Source: a virus. From it: a DNA stretch of 64,000 bases. Below are positions 3,074-16,861 of this stretch, piece by piece. The stretch spans positions 78,862 to 142,861 of IMG/VR virus record IMGVR_UViG_3300028840_005764, one strand, 5' to 3'. Numbering within the stretch: position 1 is the stretch's first letter; every line of letters starts with the position of its first letter. Under the pieces are notes generated by a model. That model saw only the letters and a list, made by a program, of their open reading frames with translations. It ran no database searches and had not been told where the DNA came from. The position numbers were made by a program, and so were the translations under genes.

Positions 3074-3629
3074 AATACCAAGACAATCCATTTGTAACAT
3101 GTGCCGCCTGTGGAAAACCAGGAGGCAAGTGGTCGTGTCTGACGGCGGGATCCGTGAATGCCGAGTGGTGGTTGTTGGTGAGGCACCTGGTGCTGAAGAA
3201 GACAAGAAAGGCAAACCTTTCGTCGGTAAGAGCGGTAGCTTACTTCGAAGTGCTATTCAGGAATCTGTCGGGATCGTATTAGGTACAGATGCGGTCGTTC
3301 TCAATACTGTCAGCTGTAGACCACCCAATAATAGAGACCCCAAGGATGATGAGAAAGACGCATGTTTGAATTGGTTGCGTCTCAATATACGCAGGATCAA
3401 ACCGAGGATAGTATTATCTGTTGGCAAACATGCGGCGGCTGTATTCACCCCTGAGAGAGATAGAGGTTTATTTTTCAGTAAGCGATACTTATATGAGATG
3501 TGGCGCGAATATGGATTCATTATGATGCATGTGTGGCACCCTGGTTATGTTCTAAGAAATCGAACAAGTATGAATGAATGGTGTAGGCATTTGAAACTTT
3601 TCGGCGAAAGATTGTTGGAGTTGTCATGA
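3066..3629 (+). CDS. uracil-DNA glycosylase, family 4
   Basis: CxxC, VGEAPG..ED..G.PFVG.SG, CRPP.NR.P and WHP motifs. Confidence 0.92.
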   Translation: MHEIPRQSICNMCRLWKTRRQVVVSDGGIRECRVVVVGEAPGAEEDKKGKPFVGKSGSLLRSAIQESVGIVLGTDAVVLNTVSCRPPNNRDPKDDEKDACLNWLRLNIRRIKPRIVLSVGKHAAAVFTPERDRGLFFSKRYLYEMWREYGFIMMHVWHPGYVLRNRTSMNEWCRHLKLFGERLLELS

Positions 3630-3826
3630 TAATAAAATATGAATCTATATCTTGCCCAAAGTGTGGTTCTTATATATGTCAAAGTGTTGTAGTTAATACA
3701 TTGTTTTATGACTCAGGACCGGAATGTGTTCATGTTGGTTATTGTATATTTTGCAGACATTATTATGAAATAGATCCTATTGGCGAACGTCTAGTTGATA
3801 TGGGTTCAGTCAGTATAGCAAGGTGA
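3626..3826 (+). CDS. small Cys-rich zinc-finger protein
   Basis: CPKC...CIFC. Confidence 0.45.
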   Translation: MIIKYESISCPKCGSYICQSVVVNTLFYDSGPECVHVGYCIFCRHYYEIDPIGERLVDMGSVSIAR

Positions 3827-3830
3827 ACTA

Positions 3831-4109
3831 ATGCCAAAGACAAATATGAAACGTATGCGGCGTCGTATTAAACGCCATCGTAAAGAAAAAGAAGAATATG
3901 GAGGTCCTTTGATCGTTGTTGATGACGGCAATGATGTGAGATTCAATATTGGCAGTGGCAGGCTTGCTCCATGGAAAGGAGCATTGACTTCTGAGATGGC
4001 AACAGATCATGATGGTCGTGGTATTTTGAGGTGGATTATTGAAAAGAGTGATTTTGATGAGACTGCTAAAGAGATAATTACAGAGCAATTGGATTCGGTT
4101 TGGTTCTAA
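3831..4109 (+). CDS. hypothetical protein
   Basis: ORF with RBS-like AGGTG. Confidence 0.5.
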   Translation: MPKTNMKRMRRRIKRHRKEKEEYGGPLIVVDDGNDVRFNIGSGRLAPWKGALTSEMATDHDGRGILRWIIEKSDFDETAKEIITEQLDSVWF

Positions 4110-5723: not shown

Positions 5724-5798
5724 TGCCCACCCTGAGATTCGAACTCAGACTTTCACGGACCTGAACCGTGTCCCTCTACCAAGTTGGGGTAGGTGGGC
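5724..5798 (-). tRNA. tRNA-Leu(CAG), short variable loop
   Basis: CACGG-TTCAGGT-CCGTG. Confidence 0.85.
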
Positions 5799-6608: not shown

Positions 6609-6841
6609 TTCTTTTTCTCAATCTTTTTCATGACTTTCGCCATTCTTTTCTCTTGACCGTGAAAACATTTCATGATCTTTTTTAGTGCCTTTTTTGGGTT
6701 GTGGTGCATTATCTTACAATGTGTGCTTTGTTCTTCAGCTACCCATTTTTGATCTTTTTCGTGCCAGAAGACAGAGAATTGGTAGTTTTTTAAGAGAGGA
6801 TATTTCACTACACAGGCTCCACATCCCAAGCGACCATACAA
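6605..6841 (-). CDS. hypothetical protein
   Basis: coupled ORF. Confidence 0.4.
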   Translation of the reverse strand: MYGRLGCGACVVKYPLLKNYQFSVFWHEKDQKWVAEEQSTHCKIMHHNPKKALKKIMKCFHGQEKRMAKVMKKIEKKK

Positions 6842-7611
6842 GAGCCAGTGAGAGGAATCGAACCCCCAACATCTTCATTACAAGTGAAGCGCTCTACCGA
6901 TTGAGCTACACTGGCATACTCAAAATCACCACGTTCGATCGCCTCGAGATGTTTGATTGAAGGACGGCATTGGTTCAATGATTTGTTGTTGTTCAATACA
7001 CTCGTTGCAATCTTCGAGATAATATCCGGATCCGTCCAATATGACTGGCCTTTTTTCAATCTCAATTTCCGCACATGGTAACGGACAGCAGATTCTGACA
7101 GCTCTGTGACTCTGCAGATTTCTTTGACGGTAATTGTACCTGATTTCCAGATTATACCCATTGCTCTGCATTTTATTTCGATTGCTTTTCTGCTTCTTCC
7201 AAGGCGTTTGGATGCATATTTCAATGGCATTCTTCCGGCGAGAAAAAGTAGTAAATCTTCTTCTTTTTTTGTCCATGGTTTTACCTTAATGCCATGTCTT
7301 GATGGCATTATTTGTGCTTTCAAACCAAGTTTTTGAAGTTTGGTCCCAACAGCATTAATAGATCTATTCAGTTTTTCTGATATTTGTTTTTTTGTATGTG
7401 TTGGTAGAAGTTTTTTTAGTTGTTGAATTTCTTCATCAGACCACGGTGGATTATGTTTTAATTTTGCTATACCAAGTTGATTGACTTTGTTTTGTATTAC
7501 TTTATGGCTTCTATCTAAAGCTTCTGCAATTTCTTTTATTGATCTACGACCATGCCAATATCGTATGTAGTCGTATTCTTCTTCAGTGAATCTTCTTGAA
7601 TTATCACCCAT
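6808..7611 (-). CDS. Myb/SANT-like repeat HTH DNA-binding protein
   Basis: three repeats FTEEE/WSDEE/WTKKE...LxRS; 3' end runs through tRNA-Thr. Confidence 0.65.
   Translation of the reverse strand: MGDNSRRFTEEEYDYIRYWHGRRSIKEIAEALDRSHKVIQNKVNQLGIAKLKHNPPWSDEEIQQLKKLLPTHTKKQISEKLNRSINAVGTKLQKLGLKAQIMPSRHGIKVKPWTKKEEDLLLFLAGRMPLKYASKRLGRSRKAIEIKCRAMGIIWKSGTITVKEICRVTELSESAVRYHVRKLRLKKGQSYWTDPDIISKIATSVLNNNKSLNQCRPSIKHLEAIERGDFEYASVAQSVERFTCNEDVGGSIPLTGSCMVAWDVEPV
6843..6915 (-). tRNA. tRNA-Thr(TGT)
   Basis: CTTCA-CTTGTAA-TGAAG. Confidence 0.9.
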
Positions 7612-7937: not shown

Positions 7938-8012
7938 TGTCCGTCCTGGGATTCGAACCCAGACTGGCAGCGCCCTCAACGCTGTTCCTCTACCTTGTTG
8001 GGATAGACGGAC
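7938..8012 (-). tRNA. tRNA-Leu(GAG), short variable loop
   Basis: CAGCG-TTGAGGG-CGCTG. Confidence 0.85.
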
Positions 8013-8800: not shown

Positions 8801-9364
8801 TTATTGAGTTTTTGGTCTTGGATATCTTTTTATTGGCCTGGGGTATCTTTTTATTTTTGCATTAAGTTCTTTTTTCTTACCGCCATTCCATAATTTGTTT
8901 TGACAAATATATCCTATAGTAGACAAATGCACTCCATATATTGATGCAATGTATTTTAATGTATTACCATGTGTACGTAGTGTCTTAATCTCTTCAACGT
9001 CTTGTTCAGATAATTTAGCACTTGGATTTTTAGAACCCACTAATGAACGTTGATCAAGTATCATGTCATTCATATTATCTTGATGTGTGCCGATGATTAA
9101 ATGTTTTGGGTTACAGCACAATGTATTATTGCATGTGTGTCGCACACACATACCACTTGGGATTGGTCCATTGACATCTTCATACACAAGTCTGTGGGCC
9201 CTATACCATTTGCGATGTTTTTTTGAATAGTATACTTTGAACTCACCATAGTAGTTGTTAGTGCGACCCGATCTGGACTTCGCACCAGTCCATAACCAAC
9301 ATTCGTTAGGACCGCGCTGTTCTATCTTCTCCCATATGCGTTTGTGTATCTCTTTGTCGATCAT
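8801..9364 (-). CDS. HNH endonuclease with C-terminal HTH
   Basis: CWLWTG, AHRL, VRHTCNNTLCCNPKHL..GT..DN. Confidence 0.9.
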   Translation of the reverse strand: MIDKEIHKRIWEKIEQRGPNECWLWTGAKSRSGRTNNYYGEFKVYYSKKHRKWYRAHRLVYEDVNGPIPSGMCVRHTCNNTLCCNPKHLIIGTHQDNMNDMILDQRSLVGSKNPSAKLSEQDVEEIKTLRTHGNTLKYIASIYGVHLSTIGYICQNKLWNGGKKKELNAKIKRYPRPIKRYPRPKTQ

Positions 9365-9535: not shown

Positions 9536-9540
9536 GTGAA

Positions 9541-9674
9541 TCGGGAGAGGTGGAATCGAACCACCGACCTGGGAGCTCCATATGCTGAAGTGGCGTCTTA
9601 GTTCCATGTGTGAGGCACGAGCGTTAGTTTAGACGTCACTTACATCCCCGCTCTACCACTGAGCTATCTCCCGA
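9541..9674 (-). ncRNA. tRNA-Pro-like RNA with ~60 nt structured insertion in the anticodon arm
   Basis: intact acceptor (C1:G72, A73), D and T arms; insertion hairpin AAGTGACGTCT/AGACGCCACTT. Confidence 0.75.
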
Positions 9675-9676
9675 AA

Positions 9677-9819
9677 GGTGGACGGGCTAGGATTCGAACC
9701 TAGAAAAACTATGCTGAAACAACTTCTGAGTTCTCAATCGTATTGAGTGATGAAAGAAATTGTTGTTGCTTGCGTTGCTAGCTCTATAGGCTAGTGCCTT
9801 ACCATTTGGCTACCCGTCC
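9677..9819 (-). ncRNA. tRNA-Tyr-like RNA (ATA anticodon) with ~70 nt structured variable region
   Basis: acceptor GGACGGG/CCCGTCC, CTAGC-CTATAGA-GCTAG, T arm CTAGG-TTCGAAT-CCTAG. Confidence 0.75.
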
Positions 9820-11461: not shown

Positions 11462-11476
11462 CTTGTGTCCTTTTGA

Positions 11477-11548
11477 CGAGCGGCTAAGGAATCGAACCCT
11501 ACAGACGGTCGGGTTTGGAGCCCAACCCGCTTACCCAGAGCGCCGCCC
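11477..11548 (-). tRNA. tRNA-Trp(CCA), atypical reduced D arm
   Basis: TTGGG-CTCCAAA-CCCGA; GTTCGATTC. Confidence 0.7.
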
Positions 11549-11550
11549 AA

Positions 11551-12980: not shown

Positions 12981-13964
12981 TTACGCACCTGCTGAGCACA
13001 GAGACACATAAGGGTAGCCTTGCCGTTCCTTATACAGAATTTGCCCAGCCAGTTGTTGGTTGGCTACAGTCGCCACACTCATCTTGGGCAGTCTGCTGTC
13101 GGCTGCACCTTCTGACAGCAGCGGCTGTTGTGTCACGTGTTCGATCGTTTTTTCGCTCAGCAGTTTGACCTGCGCATTGGCGTTTTTCAGTGCGCGGTGA
13201 ATACCAGCCAGCGATTTGACCTCCACGCTCATGGGCACAAAGAATTTTGACGCTTGCCTGTGCCGCTTTTGATACTGAATTGCGAGTGAGCCGTAGCAGA
13301 CTCTTATCAGTGGTTCCCACACACGTTCCCAGAACGCCATGTTTGGAGCGCGTTCGACACCAACCACGTTTTCTCCCAGCAAGATGATGGCACCAATTTG
13401 TTTTGGCACCAACTCAAACTCAGCTACGAACTCATCCAGCTGCTTTTCAAAGTGCTTCAAGAAGTAAGTGAGGTGGCCACCAGTATGTGGCACTCCACTT
13501 TCTTTGTTCAGACTTCTGATGTGCGGCCAGATCTTGTCATAACCTTGTCTGTGTCTCATACTGAGAGCATGAGATCGTATTGATGCTGGCAATACCAACA
13601 TGGTGATCGCTTTCTGGTCTCTGATGTAACCACCTTGGCTGTCCTCGATGCACATGGCTGTCTCGATGGACTTGCGGCCGTTTGCTTTGACCAAAAACGC
13701 GCTTGGCACAGCGTGGTCTTGTGCACGTTCTCTTGTCACCCAACCAGCACCTGTCGGTACGATGCTTGGTCGTGTGCTGTCTGTATTGCGCACTTGAACC
13801 GTACCATAGTTCGATGTTTCCACATGGAAGTCTGGTGGTGCGAAGTCGTCATCTTGCGCGTCGCCCTCGTCGATGAGCGGGATGACAGACATGTGGCCCA
13901 CGGTTTGGGTTCTGCCACGTCCCATTCCTCTGAGGATTTCTTCGACTGTGAGGTTGCGTGTCAT
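12981..13964 (-). CDS. ARPP-2-like domain protein
   Basis: resembles ARPP family (AQDHA, FELVPKQIG, GVERAP motifs) from memory; coupled to vWA gene by ATGA overlap. Confidence 0.55.
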   Translation of the reverse strand: MTRNLTVEEILRGMGRGRTQTVGHMSVIPLIDEGDAQDDDFAPPDFHVETSNYGTVQVRNTDSTRPSIVPTGAGWVTRERAQDHAVPSAFLVKANGRKSIETAMCIEDSQGGYIRDQKAITMLVLPASIRSHALSMRHRQGYDKIWPHIRSLNKESGVPHTGGHLTYFLKHFEKQLDEFVAEFELVPKQIGAIILLGENVVGVERAPNMAFWERVWEPLIRVCYGSLAIQYQKRHRQASKFFVPMSVEVKSLAGIHRALKNANAQVKLLSEKTIEHVTQQPLLSEGAADSRLPKMSVATVANQQLAGQILYKERQGYPYVSLCSAGA

Positions 13965-15574
13965 GACAGTGCCTTTCTCGTCTCAACTGACCCCAGGGCC
14001 AGACGTAGTAGGGCGTTGATTCCATTCACTGGCTCTGCCTCGATCATCCCTCGGATGAAGGTGGCTGTGAGCTGCCCAGGTTGCTGCACTGGCATTGTTG
14101 GTACACCGTCGTTGGGCGCCAGCTCACGTGCACCTTTCGACTCGGCAGCGAACACCGGGTTTAAATGATACACAGGCGTATCAATACCGATCTCCCGCAC
14201 GTGGTGCATGACCTCAGCGAAGCGCCCGGCTGGTGCATTCTCGTATCCGTCGCTGATCACGAACACAGCCTCGGGTTCGTCGTTCAGCGCCTCCACCAAG
14301 CTGTCAGCAATGGCTGTGTCACCCATCGGACGGACGAGACCATCGCCAGCTTCGATGTCTGTACCACTGACATGGTACTCCTGACTCTCATCACCGGTGT
14401 GCAACAGGGTGTCGCGCATGGCCAAGGCCACCGCCAGGGGTCGCAGTGGTTGGCTGCGGTGACCAGCCATCGATTGTGACGCGTCCACGATGACGGCCAC
14501 CGATTTGTAGCGCGTTGGGAACATCGCTGCGGTCTCCTTCGCCTTCTCGTCCAAGGCGTTCGCAATCTCTTGCGTCAGCCCACACTCGAACGCGTAGAGG
14601 TATAGGCGCACAGCGTCGTACTTCGTCGGGTCCATGTCGACTTCGACGTTTGCGCGCTTTGCTCTTTTCTGTACTGCCATCTTCTGGTGGCCGGTGAGCT
14701 TGCCGCCCTTGGCCACAAGTTTCAGCACATCCTCCTTCTTCGTGTCGGGGTGGTATGTGCTTCTCAGGCCCTCCAGGACCTCCAGAGGAAGTTTAGAGCC
14801 AGCCTTGATATCTTCCTTCGCTTTTTCAAACGAAACGAAGAGAGGCAGGCTCAGGCGTTCACGCACGTCCAGGATGAAGCCCACGCACTCGAGCACTTCC
14901 TTGTATCTGTTCAGCTGGCAGTGCTTCCGGATGTTCTGCTCGAGAATCGTTAGCTCCTTCTTCTTTCGGTAACGCCCACCCTTCTTCAGGATCGATCCGA
15001 TGATTGATGTTAGCCGTAGGCCCCAGGCGTGGGTCAGTGCCGCCCGCATTTTTGTCCTGTACTTCACCGACCAGAGTTGCAGTCTCGGGCTCGAGAGCAG
15101 CGTGCGCAGGATCAGTTTTCTTGTCCTGGCGTTGTTCGCCTTCTTCAGACCCAGGGATGCATCACCCACCCGCAGTCCATCGATCAGCTTCAACATGCGC
15201 TGTGGTGGCAGAGCTTGGAACAGGTGGTACAGCACCATGCGTTCTTGTCCCGGCTCGAGGAACGCTTGTTCCACGCCGTTCCGGGGGAATGACAGCAGCT
15301 TCTTCATACCGATCTGCACGCTGCGGTCGGTCAACCCTGGCAGCGTCAACAGCACGGCGTATACGTCCCTCTCCAGGCCAAAGAGTTCGTCGTGCACACG
15401 CAGTTCGGCAGCCTGTTGTTCGGCGCGCGTGTTGTAGTGCGTCGCGCGCCCCATGGAGCTGACAGCTGTGTCCAGGAATGAGCAGACGGATTTGCTCATC
15501 TTCTTCACAGCAGTCTTGTTCCGTGGCATCCACAGCAGCTGTTCATTCGAGTGCGTTTGCACCAACGTATTCAT
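13961..15574 (-). CDS. divergent TROVE/Ro60-like protein: basic helical N-terminus plus C-terminal vWA domain
   Basis: MIDAS DASQSM, GDTAIA, ISDGYEN; 537 aa, similar in size to Ro60/Rsr. Confidence 0.65.
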   Translation of the reverse strand: MNTLVQTHSNEQLLWMPRNKTAVKKMSKSVCSFLDTAVSSMGRATHYNTRAEQQAAELRVHDELFGLERDVYAVLLTLPGLTDRSVQIGMKKLLSFPRNGVEQAFLEPGQERMVLYHLFQALPPQRMLKLIDGLRVGDASLGLKKANNARTRKLILRTLLSSPRLQLWSVKYRTKMRAALTHAWGLRLTSIIGSILKKGGRYRKKKELTILEQNIRKHCQLNRYKEVLECVGFILDVRERLSLPLFVSFEKAKEDIKAGSKLPLEVLEGLRSTYHPDTKKEDVLKLVAKGGKLTGHQKMAVQKRAKRANVEVDMDPTKYDAVRLYLYAFECGLTQEIANALDEKAKETAAMFPTRYKSVAVIVDASQSMAGHRSQPLRPLAVALAMRDTLLHTGDESQEYHVSGTDIEAGDGLVRPMGDTAIADSLVEALNDEPEAVFVISDGYENAPAGRFAEVMHHVREIGIDTPVYHLNPVFAAESKGARELAPNDGVPTMPVQQPGQLTATFIRGMIEAEPVNGINALLRLALGSVETRKALS

Positions 15575-15632
15575 AGCATCACCTCTCCCGTGGAGTTCTC
15601 CATCAAATTGTTTGTGGAGGAAAGGAAAGATC

Positions 15633-15702
15633 TAGCGGTAATTACGGAAGCTGGGTCTTTGACATAAACTATTTGTCTGAACCAGCATCACAGTTCCCGC
15701 TA
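15633..15702 (-). ncRNA. small Y-RNA-like hairpin RNA (RNA-C)
   Basis: TAGCGG/CCGCTA closing stem, GAACT internal loop, GTGATG motif. Confidence 0.55.
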
Positions 15703-15710
15703 AAAGAAAT

Positions 15711-15832
15711 GGTTGAGTCAATTAGAGCATCACGTTTTCTAAGTGACTGGACTTGAACCAGCTACCTACGGTTTTCAGGACCGTTGCTCTTTCCAACTGA
15801 GCTACACTAAAGTGACCCTCAAGTTCTCAACC
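15711..15832 (-). ncRNA. tRNA-cloverleaf RNA on an extended interrupted stem (RNA-B)
   Basis: GGTTGAG/CTCAACC ends; D, anticodon (TGA) and T arms inside. Confidence 0.75.
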
Positions 15833-15848
15833 AAAACAAGGCGTTTAA

Positions 15849-15972
15849 AGCGAGGGAAGTAGGACATCACGATTGAGTGAAAGAGAAGGATTTGAACCTT
15901 CAACCTTCGGCTCTGCATGCCGATGCTCGACCACTCGAGCTGTCTTCCTAAAGTGACCTCCAAGTTCTCGCT
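15849..15972 (-). ncRNA. tRNA-cloverleaf RNA on an extended interrupted stem (RNA-A)
   Basis: AGCGAG/CTCGCT ends; D, anticodon (GCA) and T arms inside; flanks match RNA-B. Confidence 0.75.
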
Positions 15973-16058
15973 AAAAAATATATACCACAGGTGCTCGAAC
16001 TTTTCGCAAGTTTTTTTCTTATTTTTTCACTTTTTCTTCCATAATATATTGGGTGGAA

Positions 16059-16138: not shown

Positions 16139-16861
16139 TTATTCTGCAATTGCGTCGTTGATCGCTGCATATATTTCATCTTTTGCTCTTGCTATTTTAT
16201 AGTATGGAACATGGAAAAATTCAGCTAGATGATTATTACGTATCACAAATTCAAATGGCAAATTGGATATGAGGCCTACGTGGCGTTCACGCATTTTTTG
16301 AATACGATCGTTTTTAATTTTATTCACCAGCTCTTCTGGTGGTGTGAGTAGTGAATGTAGGACACGCCGTGCAAAAGGTTTTAATCTTTTTTCTGTGTGT
16401 TCTAATATTTCTTTGTATCTATAATCCCATTTTGCTTGGCATGAATATGGATATGATTTGATTTTATCGACTGAGATATCTTGGTTTTTCATTACCTCAA
16501 TTTTTACATGTTGTTTTGGATCTTTAGGTGTGTATTTAGAATCTTTTCTAAATGCTGTCACAGCAGTATTTAAGAAGTTTTTGCGTGCTATATACATACA
16601 CCAAGTTTTGATTGATGCGCGTGTCTCATCATATTTGTCTAGATTCTTAAACATTTTTAAATATGCTTCTTGAACAAGATCTTCTTTATCTATAAATGAC
16701 GGTATAGATACTTTCCCAGCTTCACGCATAAGGAATGGCCGCAACTCTTGAATAGTTTTGAGGAATAGCTGTTTTCTTTCGTCAGTGACTGTGAATTTTT
16801 TCTGGCGTGGATAGAGTTTCGGGCGTGGGCGGAGCTTCGGGCGTGGTTTTCTGACAATCAC
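16139..16861 (-). CDS. phage sigma-70-family sigma factor
   Basis: region 2 motif EDLVQEAYLKMFKNLDKYD..RASIKTW. Confidence 0.8.
   Translation of the reverse strand: MIVRKPRPKLRPRPKLYPRQKKFTVTDERKQLFLKTIQELRPFLMREAGKVSIPSFIDKEDLVQEAYLKMFKNLDKYDETRASIKTWCMYIARKNFLNTAVTAFRKDSKYTPKDPKQHVKIEVMKNQDISVDKIKSYPYSCQAKWDYRYKEILEHTEKRLKPFARRVLHSLLTPPEELVNKIKNDRIQKMRERHVGLISNLPFEFVIRNNHLAEFFHVPYYKIARAKDEIYAAINDAIAE

What the first reader, a model, noticed from the sequence alone, without database searches (positions are those of the whole stretch)
9541..9819. The same structured module is inserted at two different positions in adjacent tRNA scaffolds
Seen: a Pro-like tRNA (C1:G72, A73, residual TGG) has ~60 nt inserted in the anticodon arm. 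The next, Tyr-like tRNA (ATA anticodon) has ~70 nt in the variable region. Both inserts consist of a long stem, a small apical hairpin, GAACT, the stem 3' strand and TTCAGCATA. On the + strand, TATGCTGAA is at 9581 and 9710 and AGTTC is at 9600 and 9729, exactly 19 nt apart in both, while the stem sequences differ. The stem-GAACT-stem motif also occurs in RNA-A/B/C. Inference: a protein-binding aptamer, plausibly for the TROVE-like protein, has been grafted onto tRNAs, giving five related RNAs. Alternatively these are a new class of small tRNA intron.
Basis: partly seen in the sequence, partly recalled or inferred. Interest (0 to 1): 0.85.

Follow-up and report, generated by a model that had tools for sequence, protein, structure and literature searches.

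The report
Ro-binding RNA handle grafted into tRNAs
Two otherwise complete tRNA genes in a marine phage carry the RNA "handle" that the phage's Y-RNA-like genes appear to use to bind its Ro60-like protein. This looks like a natural tRNA-scaffolded variant of the known Ro/Y-RNA system, not a new kind of intron.

Summary
On the minus strand, 9679-9819 is a class-II (Tyr-like, anticodon AUA) tRNA with a 71-nt insert in the variable region. 9541-9673 is a Pro-like tRNA whose anticodon loop is replaced by about 63 nt. Both inserts share GAACU-N10-UUCAGCAUA, and their stems differ but stay complementary.

The motif is not a chance match. It is the conserved 5' strand of a two-helix handle. I found this handle 34 times, always just upstream of homologues of the window's 537-aa gene (13961-15574), in 20 of 24 phage loci, and it shows clear covariation. 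That protein has no Pfam hit, but its predicted structure is a full-length Ro60 (TROVE ring plus vWA; Z 12-17). One relative's RNA matches Rfam YrlA end to end.

A weight matrix built only from other phages ranks the window's five sites, including both inserts, as the top five of about 285,000 positions in this genome.

In the two tRNAs the handle is circularly permuted. Its outer helix is capped by a loop and its inner helix opens into the tRNA body.

- Best reading (0.68): tRNA-scaffolded Y RNAs with free acceptor ends.
- Binding and expression are untested.
- No second phage with such grafts was found.

The scan's other first-reader notes on this same genome reached the same reading.

The parts
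9679..9819 (-). Tyr-like class-II tRNA scaffold (acceptor 7 bp, 3-bp D stem, intact anticodon arm with AUA, T arm, A73) with the handle in place of the long variable arm
   Evidence: Rfam tRNA 55.2 bits, model 1-71, with a 71-nt insertion at positions 44/45
9710..9767 (-). Handle 1. Inner helix 9767-9755 pairs with 9728-9718. Loop 9754-9748. Outer helix is a capped hairpin, 9747-9742 / triloop / 9738-9733. AACU 9732-9729. UCAGCAUA 9717-9710.
   Evidence: Sequence. The inner-helix pairing is in the RNAfold MFE, which draws the apical region differently; the capped outer hairpin is read from the sequence. Cross-phage weight-matrix score 22.7, rank 2 of about 285,000 positions. The upstream partner beats the downstream one, -9.3 vs -6.4 kcal/mol.
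9541..9673 (-). Pro-like tRNA scaffold (C1:G72, A73, canonical D and T arms, 5-nt variable loop) whose anticodon loop is replaced by the handle
   Evidence: ARAGORN -i: tRNA with a 63-nt insert at 31/32. Arms read.
9581..9641 (-). Handle 2. Inner helix 9641-9631 pairs with 9599-9588 (one C.A mismatch). Loop 9630-9621. Proposed weak outer hairpin 9620-9616 / loop / 9608-9604. AACU 9603-9600. CAGCAUA 9587-9581.
   Evidence: Sequence. The module folded alone forms the inner helix. Weight-matrix score 13.6, rank 5 of about 285,000. Upstream partner -11.2 vs downstream -9.8 kcal/mol. The outer hairpin is by inspection only.
15843..15976 (-). Y-like RNA A. The handle is formed by the RNA's 5' and 3' ends and encloses a tRNA-like domain (ARAGORN 'tRNA-Cys' 15877-15949).
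   Evidence: Model R1, full-length match 14.7 bits with an 81-nt insert. Weight-matrix score 20.2.
15707..15835 (-). Y-like RNA B. The handle encloses a tRNA-like domain (15738-15811; loop CCUGAAA, no long variable arm).
   Evidence: R1 13.5 bits. Weight-matrix score 15.8.
15628..15705 (-). Y-like RNA C: handle plus a short hairpin
   Evidence: R1 52.8 bits, E 2.7e-10. It was in the seed alignment. Weight-matrix score 30.1, built without it.
13961..15574 (-). Ro60-like protein, 537 aa: helical TROVE-like ring plus a vWA domain with a MIDAS motif
   Evidence: No Pfam or PHROG hit. AF2 model pLDDT 82.8. Foldseek top 10 are all Ro60, probability 1.0. VIA-align Z 12.4-17.1 over about 400 residues. 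D364, S366 and S368 are invariant.
12981..13964 (-). ARPP-1 family partner, overlapping the Ro-like gene by 4 nt
   Evidence: Pfam PF20208, E 6.6e-27. The pair is present in all five relatives' gene tables examined.

Best explanation
The two genes encode tRNA-scaffolded Y RNAs. Each is a complete tRNA body with its own free 5' and 3' ends in a perfect 7-bp acceptor stem. From each body projects a rod-like handle. In the Pro-like RNA the handle projects from the anticodon stem. In the Tyr-like RNA it projects from the variable-arm position.

The handle has an outer helix, an asymmetric internal loop with AACU on one strand, a 10-bp inner helix, and then UUCA. It is the same element that forms the terminal stem of the three Y-RNA-like genes upstream of the phage's Ro60-like gene, and of their counterparts in many other phages. 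Here it is circularly permuted: the outer helix is capped by a loop and the inner helix opens into the tRNA.

Shown:
- the anatomy of the two RNAs;
- the identity of the motif with the cross-phage family;
- covariation in the family's two helices;
- the Ro60 fold of the neighbouring protein.

Inferred:
- The RNAs are cut out of the tRNA-array transcript by RNase P and 3' processing, as tRNAs are.
- The handle binds the outer surface of the Ro60-like ring, as Y RNA stems do.
- The tRNA body then acts as the effector module, tethering the Ro-like/ARPP-1 particle to a tRNA-recognising partner, or it serves simply as a stabilising scaffold.

The Pro-like form is what a YrlA RNA becomes if its permutation is undone.
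For: (1) tRNA bodies: Rfam tRNA 55.2 bits across 9679-9819 with a single 71-nt insertion. ARAGORN finds a tRNA with a 63-nt insert at 9540-9674. Both sit 1-5 nt from ordinary tRNAs in the array.

(2) Handle family: a two-helix structure on 17 hand-picked elements has 73.5% of cells paired, against 38-48% when the partners are slid, and a covariation score of 0.51 against at most 0.26. Model R1 finds 34 elements, all on the gene's strand upstream of Ro-like genes, and the covariation result is the same on them.

(3) Specificity: there are 0 R1 hits in 188 kb from terminase-related phages. The five of those records tested have no match to the Ro-like gene. In five other Ro-carrying genome records, every significant R1 hit lies in the stretch fetched around the Ro-like gene.

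(4) A 23-position weight matrix built from other phages only ranks Y-C, insert 1, Y-A, Y-B and insert 2 as the top five of about 285,000 positions in this genome.

(5) Topology: of about 60 high-scoring family members, only the two inserts have the inner-helix partner upstream rather than downstream.

(6) Protein: Ro60 entries fill the top 10 by Foldseek and by VIA-align, Z 12.4-17.1.

(7) Link to known Y RNAs: L043 6839-6973 matches Rfam YrlA end to end at 31 bits, E 8e-5, and has the same handle. Published work says Ro60 contacts mainly the 5' strand of the Y RNA helix and that only that strand is conserved (10.1101/312249). It also reports that phage Ro60 binds Y-like RNAs found through a conserved CGAA motif (PMC12135203).

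(8) Between the two inserts, GAACU and UUCAGCAUA are kept while the capped hairpin and loops differ completely. This argues for constraint rather than recent copying.
Against: - No expression or binding data exist.
- Only the 5'-strand motif is statistically recognisable. A matrix for the 3' half is not specific, and that resemblance (AAACUAAC in insert 2 against the family's AACUUAC-type loop) is by eye only.
- The outer hairpin of insert 2 is weak.
- The folding energy of insert 2 alone is unremarkable (z +0.13). For the full Pro-like RNA, RNAfold prefers a non-cloverleaf pairing.
- No other phage with a handle inside a tRNA was found. The graft therefore rests on two copies in one genome.
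- The protein fails the Pfam TROVE model.
Confidence: 0.68

Rival explanations
1. The inserts are small tRNA introns of a new class. They are excised to give functional tRNA-Tyr-like and tRNA-Pro-like molecules, and the shared motif is the recognition site for the splicing machinery.
For: ARAGORN can model the Pro-like gene as an intron-containing tRNA. The inserts lie in positions where archaeal tRNA introns are known (own knowledge).
Against: - The same motif forms the terminal stem of free-standing RNAs next to Ro-like genes in 20 loci, where there is nothing to splice.
- Removing the Pro-like insert does not give a clean anticodon loop. The result is either anticodon GGA with a 4-bp stem, or UGG preceded by A33.
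- No group I intron family or any other Rfam family besides tRNA hits the region.
- No bulge-helix-bulge geometry is seen by inspection.
- The genome has no RtcB ligase or tRNA splicing endonuclease.
- The phage already has ordinary tRNA-Pro(UGG) and tRNA-Tyr(GUA) genes.
Confidence: 0.08
2. The functional unit is a YrlA-type permuted RNA that spans the junction of the two genes (about 9614-9742, minus strand). It would consist of the 5' half-handle of insert 1, the T arm of the Tyr-like gene, a short acceptor-like hairpin, the D arm of the Pro-like gene, and the 3' half-handle of insert 2.
For: Model R1 gives a full-length match there at 11.3 bits, E 0.26, similar to its scores for Y-A and Y-B. 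Rfam YrlA has a weak hit to the tRNA-like core at 9650-9705. The two strands can form 8 of 9 pairs, three of them G.U (read).
Against: - The forced trans fold is 20 kcal/mol worse than the free fold (-66.4 vs -86.3).
- Each half-handle has a better partner in cis.
- Both acceptor stems are perfect 7-bp helices, whereas the trans fold uses only 4 bp of them.
- It would leave two orphan half-handles and two orphan tRNA halves.
- Similar weak YrlA hits occur at other junctions between ordinary tandem tRNAs.
Confidence: 0.07
3. The grafts have no RNA function. They are either decayed tRNA pseudogenes that picked up copies of handle fragments, or a DNA-level signal such as a promoter or protein site for the adjacent phage sigma factor.
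For: A sigma-70-like match overlaps insert 1 (TTGAGA-18-CATAGT, 9 of 12). A Sigma70_r2 gene lies at 16139-16861. GGAAC resembles ECF -35 elements (own knowledge). No second phage has the graft.
Against: - Promoter-like sites are not enriched (8 found against 6.2 +/- 2.6 expected).
- By inspection of the upstream regions of seven relatives' loci, the motif lies about 10-20 nt downstream of a TTGACA-N17/19-TAnnnn promoter-like site, so it would be transcribed.
- The N10 covaries with a partner strand, which a spacer would not do.
- Both tRNA bodies are intact in every arm, and both inserts keep compensated stems.
Confidence: 0.12

Closest known systems
YrlA (Rfam RF02553): bacterial and phage Y RNAs with a tRNA-like effector domain (Chen et al. 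2014, PMC4201824; Wang et al. 2018, 10.1101/312249)
   Same: A Ro60-binding stem is joined to a tRNA-shaped domain, and the genes lie in the same neighbourhood as a Ro60 homologue. In YrlA the stem occupies the anticodon-stem position, as in the Pro-like RNA here. A relative's RNA (L043 6839-6973) matches the YrlA model end to end.
   Different: YrlA is a circularly permuted tRNA. Its ends lie in the Ro-binding stem, its acceptor stem is a closed loop, and it has no free CCA end. Here the tRNA is not permuted (free acceptor end, flanked by tRNAs in an array) and the handle is the permuted, capped part. The window's RNAs score far below the YrlA gathering score (at most 21 bits against 69). The Tyr-like RNA carries the handle on the variable arm and keeps an anticodon arm, which I did not find described in the papers read here.
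Deinococcus radiodurans Yrn1
   Same: The Ro-binding stem is formed by the RNA's ends and sits in the acceptor-stem position, with D-like and T-like arms inside (PMC4201824). This is the layout of Y-A and Y-B in the window and of the first RNA in most relatives' loci.
   Different: This is not the layout of the two RNAs of the finding. No sequence similarity was tested.
Thermus phage phiLo Ro60 with Yrl1/Yrl2 (PMC12135203; PDB 9KOP, 9L5Y)
   Same: A phage-encoded Ro60 with Y-like RNAs upstream of the gene, recognised by a CGAA-type motif and shown to bind. It is the best structural match to the window's protein (Z 17.1 and 16.1).
   Different: 13% sequence identity. No ARPP-1 partner and no tRNA-embedded handles are reported in the passages read.
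Engineered tRNA scaffolds for expressing RNA aptamers (Ponchon and Dardel 2007; from my own knowledge, not checked here)
   Same: A structured RNA replaces the anticodon loop of a tRNA, so the chimera is processed and stabilised like a tRNA.
   Different: That is an artificial design. The case here is natural and also uses the variable arm.
tRNA introns (group I in bacteria and phages, bulge-helix-bulge in archaea)
   Same: Extra sequence lies inside a tRNA gene, at the anticodon or variable-region position.
   Different: The inserts are too small for group I, no Rfam intron match was found, and there is no splicing endonuclease or RtcB. The insert is a conserved functional element of other RNAs.

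Membership tests
Y RNA (Ro60-associated ncRNA) | Conserved Ro60-binding helix with a conserved 5'-strand motif | tested here: met
   The cross-phage weight matrix ranks both inserts among the top five of about 285,000 positions. The family's helices covary.
Y RNA (Ro60-associated ncRNA) | Long stem formed by pairing the RNA's own 5' and 3' ends | tested here: not met
   In both RNAs the handle is an internal, loop-capped hairpin and the ends lie in the tRNA acceptor stem.
Y RNA (Ro60-associated ncRNA) | Encoded next to a Ro60 homologue | tested here: inconclusive
   The RNAs are on the same strand, 4.1-4.4 kb downstream of the Ro-like gene's 3' end, inside the tRNA array. Three canonical Y-like genes are directly adjacent to the gene.
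Y RNA (Ro60-associated ncRNA) | Physical binding to Ro60 | not testable with these tools
   No protein-RNA docking or expression data are available.
YrlA (RF02553) | Reaches the Rfam gathering score; permuted T arm - acceptor loop - D arm order | tested here: not met
   There are only weak junction hits of 15-21 bits against a gathering score of 69. The tRNA bodies are not permuted.
tRNA | Cloverleaf with a 7-bp acceptor stem, D arm and T arm | tested here: met
   Rfam tRNA 55.2 bits for 9679-9819. ARAGORN -i finds 9540-9674.
tRNA | 7-nt anticodon loop with U33 | tested here: inconclusive
   Met by the Tyr-like RNA (CUAUAGA). Not met by the Pro-like RNA, whose loop is replaced by the handle.
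tRNA | Aminoacylation and decoding | not testable with these tools
   -
tRNA intron (group I or bulge-helix-bulge) | Group I catalytic core, or a BHB motif with a splicing endonuclease and ligase | tested here: not met
   No intron family was found at E up to 10. The inserts are 63 and 71 nt. No BHB is seen by inspection. PF01974 and PF01139 are absent from the complete genome.
Ro60 / TROVE protein (for 13961-15574) | Matches the Pfam TROVE model | tested here: not met
   No Pfam family at E up to 0.01. PF05731 finds nothing in the genome. The profile has no PDB sequence hit.
Ro60 / TROVE protein (for 13961-15574) | HEAT-repeat ring followed by a vWA domain with a MIDAS motif | tested here: met
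   VIA-align Z 12.4-17.1 to ten Ro60 entries over 393-417 aligned residues spanning residues 28-533. vWA-only proteins score lower. DxSxS is invariant.

The most novel reading that the evidence does not exclude
The two chimeras are matured, CCA-tailed and perhaps aminoacylated like real tRNAs. If so, the phage physically couples its Ro60-like/ARPP-1 particle to whatever handles tRNAs in the infected cell: synthetases, EF-Tu, the ribosome, or host anticodon nucleases. One possible role is a decoy or sensor that brings an RNA-surveillance or repair complex to the site of tRNA attack. This would be the first Y RNA with a free acceptor end, and a natural example of modular grafting of a protein-binding RNA element onto different arms of tRNA.
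Probability: 0.2. Interest if true: 0.85.

Novelty: new variant of a known kind. Interest (0 to 1): 0.62.

Why it matters
Y RNAs are thought to work as modular tethers. One end binds Ro60 and the other, often tRNA-like, binds an effector. In the Y RNAs covered by the papers read here, the ends lie in the Ro-binding stem. The tRNA-like part therefore has no free acceptor end, apart from M. smegmatis YrlA after RNase P cleavage.

If the RNAs here are real, they show the opposite arrangement, at two different graft points in one genome. That makes the modularity of the Ro handle directly testable. The same handle is available on an anticodon stem, on a variable arm and on an acceptor stem, with natural compensatory variants.

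The work also brings to light a large Ro60-like family that Pfam did not detect (at least 482 homologues). Many members lie on long phage-like contigs, and in the relatives whose gene tables were read it is paired with an ARPP-1 gene. Its conserved RNA partners are not in Rfam.

Tried and rejected
- **Exact-motif scans.** GAACT-N-AGA-N-G-N4-TTCAGCATA gave 0 hits in viral contigs and 12 in metagenome contigs, all without any tRNA-like sequence around the match. The looser GAACT-N10-TTCAGCATA gave at least 118 viral hits. The 80 I examined showed no handle or tRNA context. One recurrent hit, in nine records of about 108-120 kb, lies in a stretch that looks coding and has no tRNA.
- **Relatives by terminase (52-59% identity).** The tRNA model gave no unusually long match in five of these records, including one complete genome with a 40-tRNA array. 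Neither the weight matrix nor R1 found a handle in the stretches fetched from them.
- **Four complete Ro-carrying genomes (751 kb).** A scan with the weight matrix plus an upstream/downstream pairing test found no second permuted handle. One outlier (G007 35804) lies in GC-rich sequence that looks coding.
- **Closest Ro-like relatives (63-65% identity).** Their contigs show a different downstream context or gave no DNA.
- **Single-protein locus search** with the Ro-like protein found nothing until an alignment was used.
- **DNA similarity to deposited phages** hit only ordinary tRNAs.
- **Sequencing runs.** No RNA holder is listed. One DNA run's contig spans 9461-10006 without differences, but it may be the source sample.
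- **MAFFT alignment of the two inserts** did not align the stems, so no covariance model of the permuted form was built.
- **The scaffolds are not close duplicates** of the phage's own tRNA-Pro and tRNA-Tyr.
- **A 3'-half weight matrix** was not specific.
- **Literature.** Two literature calls timed out, and one review is not held.

Full report
**Setting.** The window is the last 64 kb of a complete 142,861-bp phage record with direct terminal repeats. The sequence is held by a seawater and a sediment metagenome run. A tRNA array of about 25 genes runs on the minus strand from 4.6 to 16.1 kb.

**The observation.** Read on the minus strand, 9819-9679 is a tRNA. The Rfam model aligns it end to end at 55.2 bits. 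The only departure is a 71-nt insertion between model positions 44 and 45, that is, in the variable region.

- It has a perfect 7-bp acceptor stem, A73, a 3-bp D stem typical of class-II tRNAs, and an intact anticodon arm with loop CUAUAGA (anticodon AUA).
- Four bases downstream, 9673-9541 has a perfect acceptor stem (C1:G72, A73), canonical D and T arms and a 5-nt variable loop.
- About 63 nt sit where its anticodon loop should be. ARAGORN finds this gene only when introns are allowed.

The 9-mer TATGCTGAA (+ strand) is at 9581 and 9710 only, and AGTTC is at 9600 and 9729.

**What the shared motif is.** The same GAACU-N10-UU(C/U)AG spacing occurs three more times on the minus strand, at 15968, 15827 and 15697. 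These sites lie just upstream of a 537-aa gene at 13961-15574. That gene has no Pfam or PHROG hit but at least 482 homologues, many on contigs of 70-190 kb. In all five relatives whose gene tables I read, it is followed by an ARPP-1 gene.

In a relative with 62% protein identity, the 510-nt gap upstream of the gene holds three copies of the motif. I then fetched 22 more loci with a protein alignment. By inspection, seven relatives' loci, including that first one, show the same layout:

- a promoter-like site (TTGACA-N17/19-TAnnnn);
- 10-20 nt later, C-G-(G/A)-G-(A)ACU;
- a 10-nt strand, then U(U/A)CAG;
- a variable domain;
- a strand complementary to the 10-mer;
- a loop of the type CCUAC or ACUUAC;
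- a strand complementary to the bases before AACU.

This is a rod with two helices and a conserved asymmetric internal loop, closed by the RNA's own ends. The variable domain is usually a tRNA-like cloverleaf in the first RNA of each locus and a short hairpin in the later ones. The anticodons of these cloverleaves differ from phage to phage, as expected of mimics rather than decoders.

**Tests of the handle family.**

- On a 17-sequence alignment, the two helices have 73.5% of cells paired, against 38-48% when the partners are slid by 1-3 columns. The covariation score is 0.51 against at most 0.26, and 15 of 18 pairs change on both sides.
- A covariance model built from that alignment (R1) finds 34 elements in 20 of 24 sources. 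All are on the gene's strand and upstream of it, and 17 were not in the seed. Pair statistics on all 34 are the same, although that alignment is fitted to the model.
- R1 finds nothing in 188 kb from phages related by terminase. The five of those records tested have no match to the gene.
- In five other genome records that carry the gene (four complete, one about 68%), every significant R1 hit lies in the stretch fetched around it.

**The protein.** An AlphaFold model built from 24 homologues has a mean pLDDT of 82.8.

- Foldseek's top ten are all Ro60: Xenopus, human, Deinococcus Rsr and Thermus phage phiLo (probability 1.0, E 1e-5 to 5e-4).
- VIA-align gives Z 12.4-17.1 over 393-417 aligned residues spanning residues 28-533. 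vWA-only proteins follow at Z 11 or less.
- The MIDAS DxSxS motif is invariant.

By fold, this is a full-length Ro60-like protein that the TROVE HMM does not detect.

**Link to known Y RNAs.** One relative's RNA (L043 6839-6973) has a permuted tRNA domain inside the same handle. It matches Rfam YrlA over the whole model at 31 bits, E 8e-5, below the gathering score.

The published picture fits:

- Y RNAs with tRNA-like domains are encoded next to Ro60 in more than 250 bacteria and phages (PMC4201824).
- Ro60 contacts mainly the 5' strand of the Y RNA helix, and only that strand is conserved (10.1101/312249).
- Phage phiLo Ro60 binds two upstream Y-like RNAs that were found through a CGAA motif (PMC12135203).

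The C-G-(A/G)-G-A-A-C-U motif here plausibly corresponds to that CGAA signature. This correspondence is my inference.

**Are the two inserts members of the family?** I built a 23-position weight matrix for the 5' strand from the 33 elements of other phages and scanned both strands of the whole 142.9-kb genome. The top five positions are:

| Site | Score |
|---|---|
| Y-C | 30.1 |
| insert 1 | 22.7 |
| Y-A | 20.2 |
| Y-B | 15.8 |
| insert 2 | 13.6 |
| best background | 12.8 |

So both inserts carry the family's conserved strand.

The topology differs, however. Among about 60 high-scoring members, the 10-mer's best partner lies downstream. Only in the two inserts does it lie upstream.

Read with the family architecture in mind, each insert runs in this order: inner-helix 3' strand, loop, outer helix capped by a small loop, AACU, inner-helix 5' strand, UUCA, and then a short pairing back into the tRNA. 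The capped outer helix is a 6-bp hairpin with a triloop in insert 1 and a weak 5-bp hairpin in insert 2. That is a circular permutation of the handle. The end that is open in free-standing Y-like RNAs is capped, and the end that normally encloses the variable domain opens into the tRNA body.

Between the two inserts, the AACU and UUCAGCAUA segments are identical. The capped hairpin and loops are unrelated, and the helices are compensated. This points to selection rather than a recent copy.

**An alternative fold.** With filters off, R1 also reports a weak full-length match at 9614-9742 (11.3 bits, E 0.26). It joins the 5' half-handle of insert 1 to the 3' half-handle of insert 2, across the T arm of one gene and the D arm of the next. 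This is the YrlA topology.

- Forcing that pairing costs 20 kcal/mol relative to the free fold.
- It uses only 4 bp of two perfect acceptor stems.
- It leaves two half-handles unpaired.

I treat it as a minor rival. It does illustrate how such grafts could arise: a tandem duplication of a YrlA-type gene, read from one acceptor loop to the next, gives exactly a non-permuted tRNA with a capped handle on its anticodon stem.

**Introns?** Four points argue against splicing.

- Nothing in Rfam other than tRNA matches the region.
- The complete genome has no RtcB and no tRNA splicing endonuclease.
- Removing the Pro-like insert does not leave a proper anticodon loop.
- The phage has ordinary tRNA-Pro(UGG) and tRNA-Tyr(GUA) genes elsewhere, and the scaffolds are not close copies of them.

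**Promoter?** Promoter-like sites are not enriched. In relatives the motif lies downstream of the promoter-like site. The N10 also covaries with a partner, which a spacer would not do.

**Limits.**

- No RNA data exist.
- I found no second phage with a handle inside a tRNA, despite exact-motif scans of viral and metagenome contigs. The same holds for scans of terminase relatives and of four complete Ro-carrying genomes.
- The 3'-side resemblance is by eye.
- Insert 2 is not thermodynamically remarkable.
- Binding to the Ro-like protein is inferred from homology of both partners to a known RNP, not shown.

**Verdict.** The system belongs to a known kind, Ro60 with tRNA-like Y RNAs. The new element is the grafting of a permuted Ro handle into complete, non-permuted tRNAs at two different positions. 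It is a new variant of a known kind, of moderate to high interest.

Other first-reader notes of this scan on the same genome (e1-5903567, e1-5903575, e1-5903568, e1-5903576) describe the same RNAs and the same reading. I looked them up only after forming mine. They are not independent evidence.

Noticed in passing
L034:12723-12960 (also L036, L038, L039; L040:9725-9888): Directly downstream of the ARPP-1 gene, relatives carry two or three tandem tRNA-like genes. ARAGORN cannot assign them a normal anticodon ('tRNA-???', anticodon given as 2 or 4 bases). In L034 all three appear to have 9-nt anticodon loops of the form CUCU-NNN-RA.
   Followed up: no
L044:663, L046:3330, L047:3201: A handle-bearing Y-like element (weight-matrix score 12-19, partner strand about 91-107 nt downstream) lies just upstream of a phage tmRNA gene in three Ro-carrying phages. 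The tmRNA genes are at 844-1207, 3480-3854 and 3347-3702.
   Followed up: partly
L043:1-15551 (G007, 191.6 kb): In this relative the Ro-like gene sits inside an array of 37 tRNAs with at least five Y-like RNAs. They include a YrlA-type RNA at 6839-6973 and two more in a gap of the array at 4002 and 4159, closed by 9-11 bp outer helices.
   Followed up: partly
L056:9520-9680: A second YrlA-type permuted tRNA-like RNA with the handle lies downstream of the ARPP-1 gene rather than upstream of the Ro-like gene.
   Followed up: partly
window 12981-15574 (-): The Ro-like and ARPP-1 genes overlap by 4 nt, and the pair is present in all five relatives' gene tables examined. A Ro60-like protein paired with ARPP-1 rather than with RtcB/RtcA does not appear in the papers I read.
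   Followed up: partly
A5 columns 22/172 (inner helix): One position of the inner helix is non-canonical in 9 of 34 family members. By eye it is a C.A opposition in L180b and L040c. Insert 2 of the window has a C.A at the corresponding place.
   Followed up: no
window 6808-7611 (-) and 6842-6915 (-): tRNA-Thr lies inside the 3' end of a 267-aa HTH-domain ORF on the same strand. Either the ORF call is too long or the gene and the tRNA overlap.
   Followed up: no
window 5724-5798, 7938-8012, 11475-11549 (-): Three tRNAs called by ARAGORN (Leu-cag, Leu-gag, Trp-cca) are not reported by Rfam's tRNA model at its gathering score, so they may be degenerate or atypical.
   Followed up: no
window 8801-9364 (-): An HNH homing-endonuclease gene with an HTH domain interrupts the tRNA array about 100 nt from the tRNA-Leu that follows the two chimeras.
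   Followed up: no
I did not examine it. It may be a two-piece tmRNA or another permuted tRNA-like RNA of this phage.
   Followed up: no
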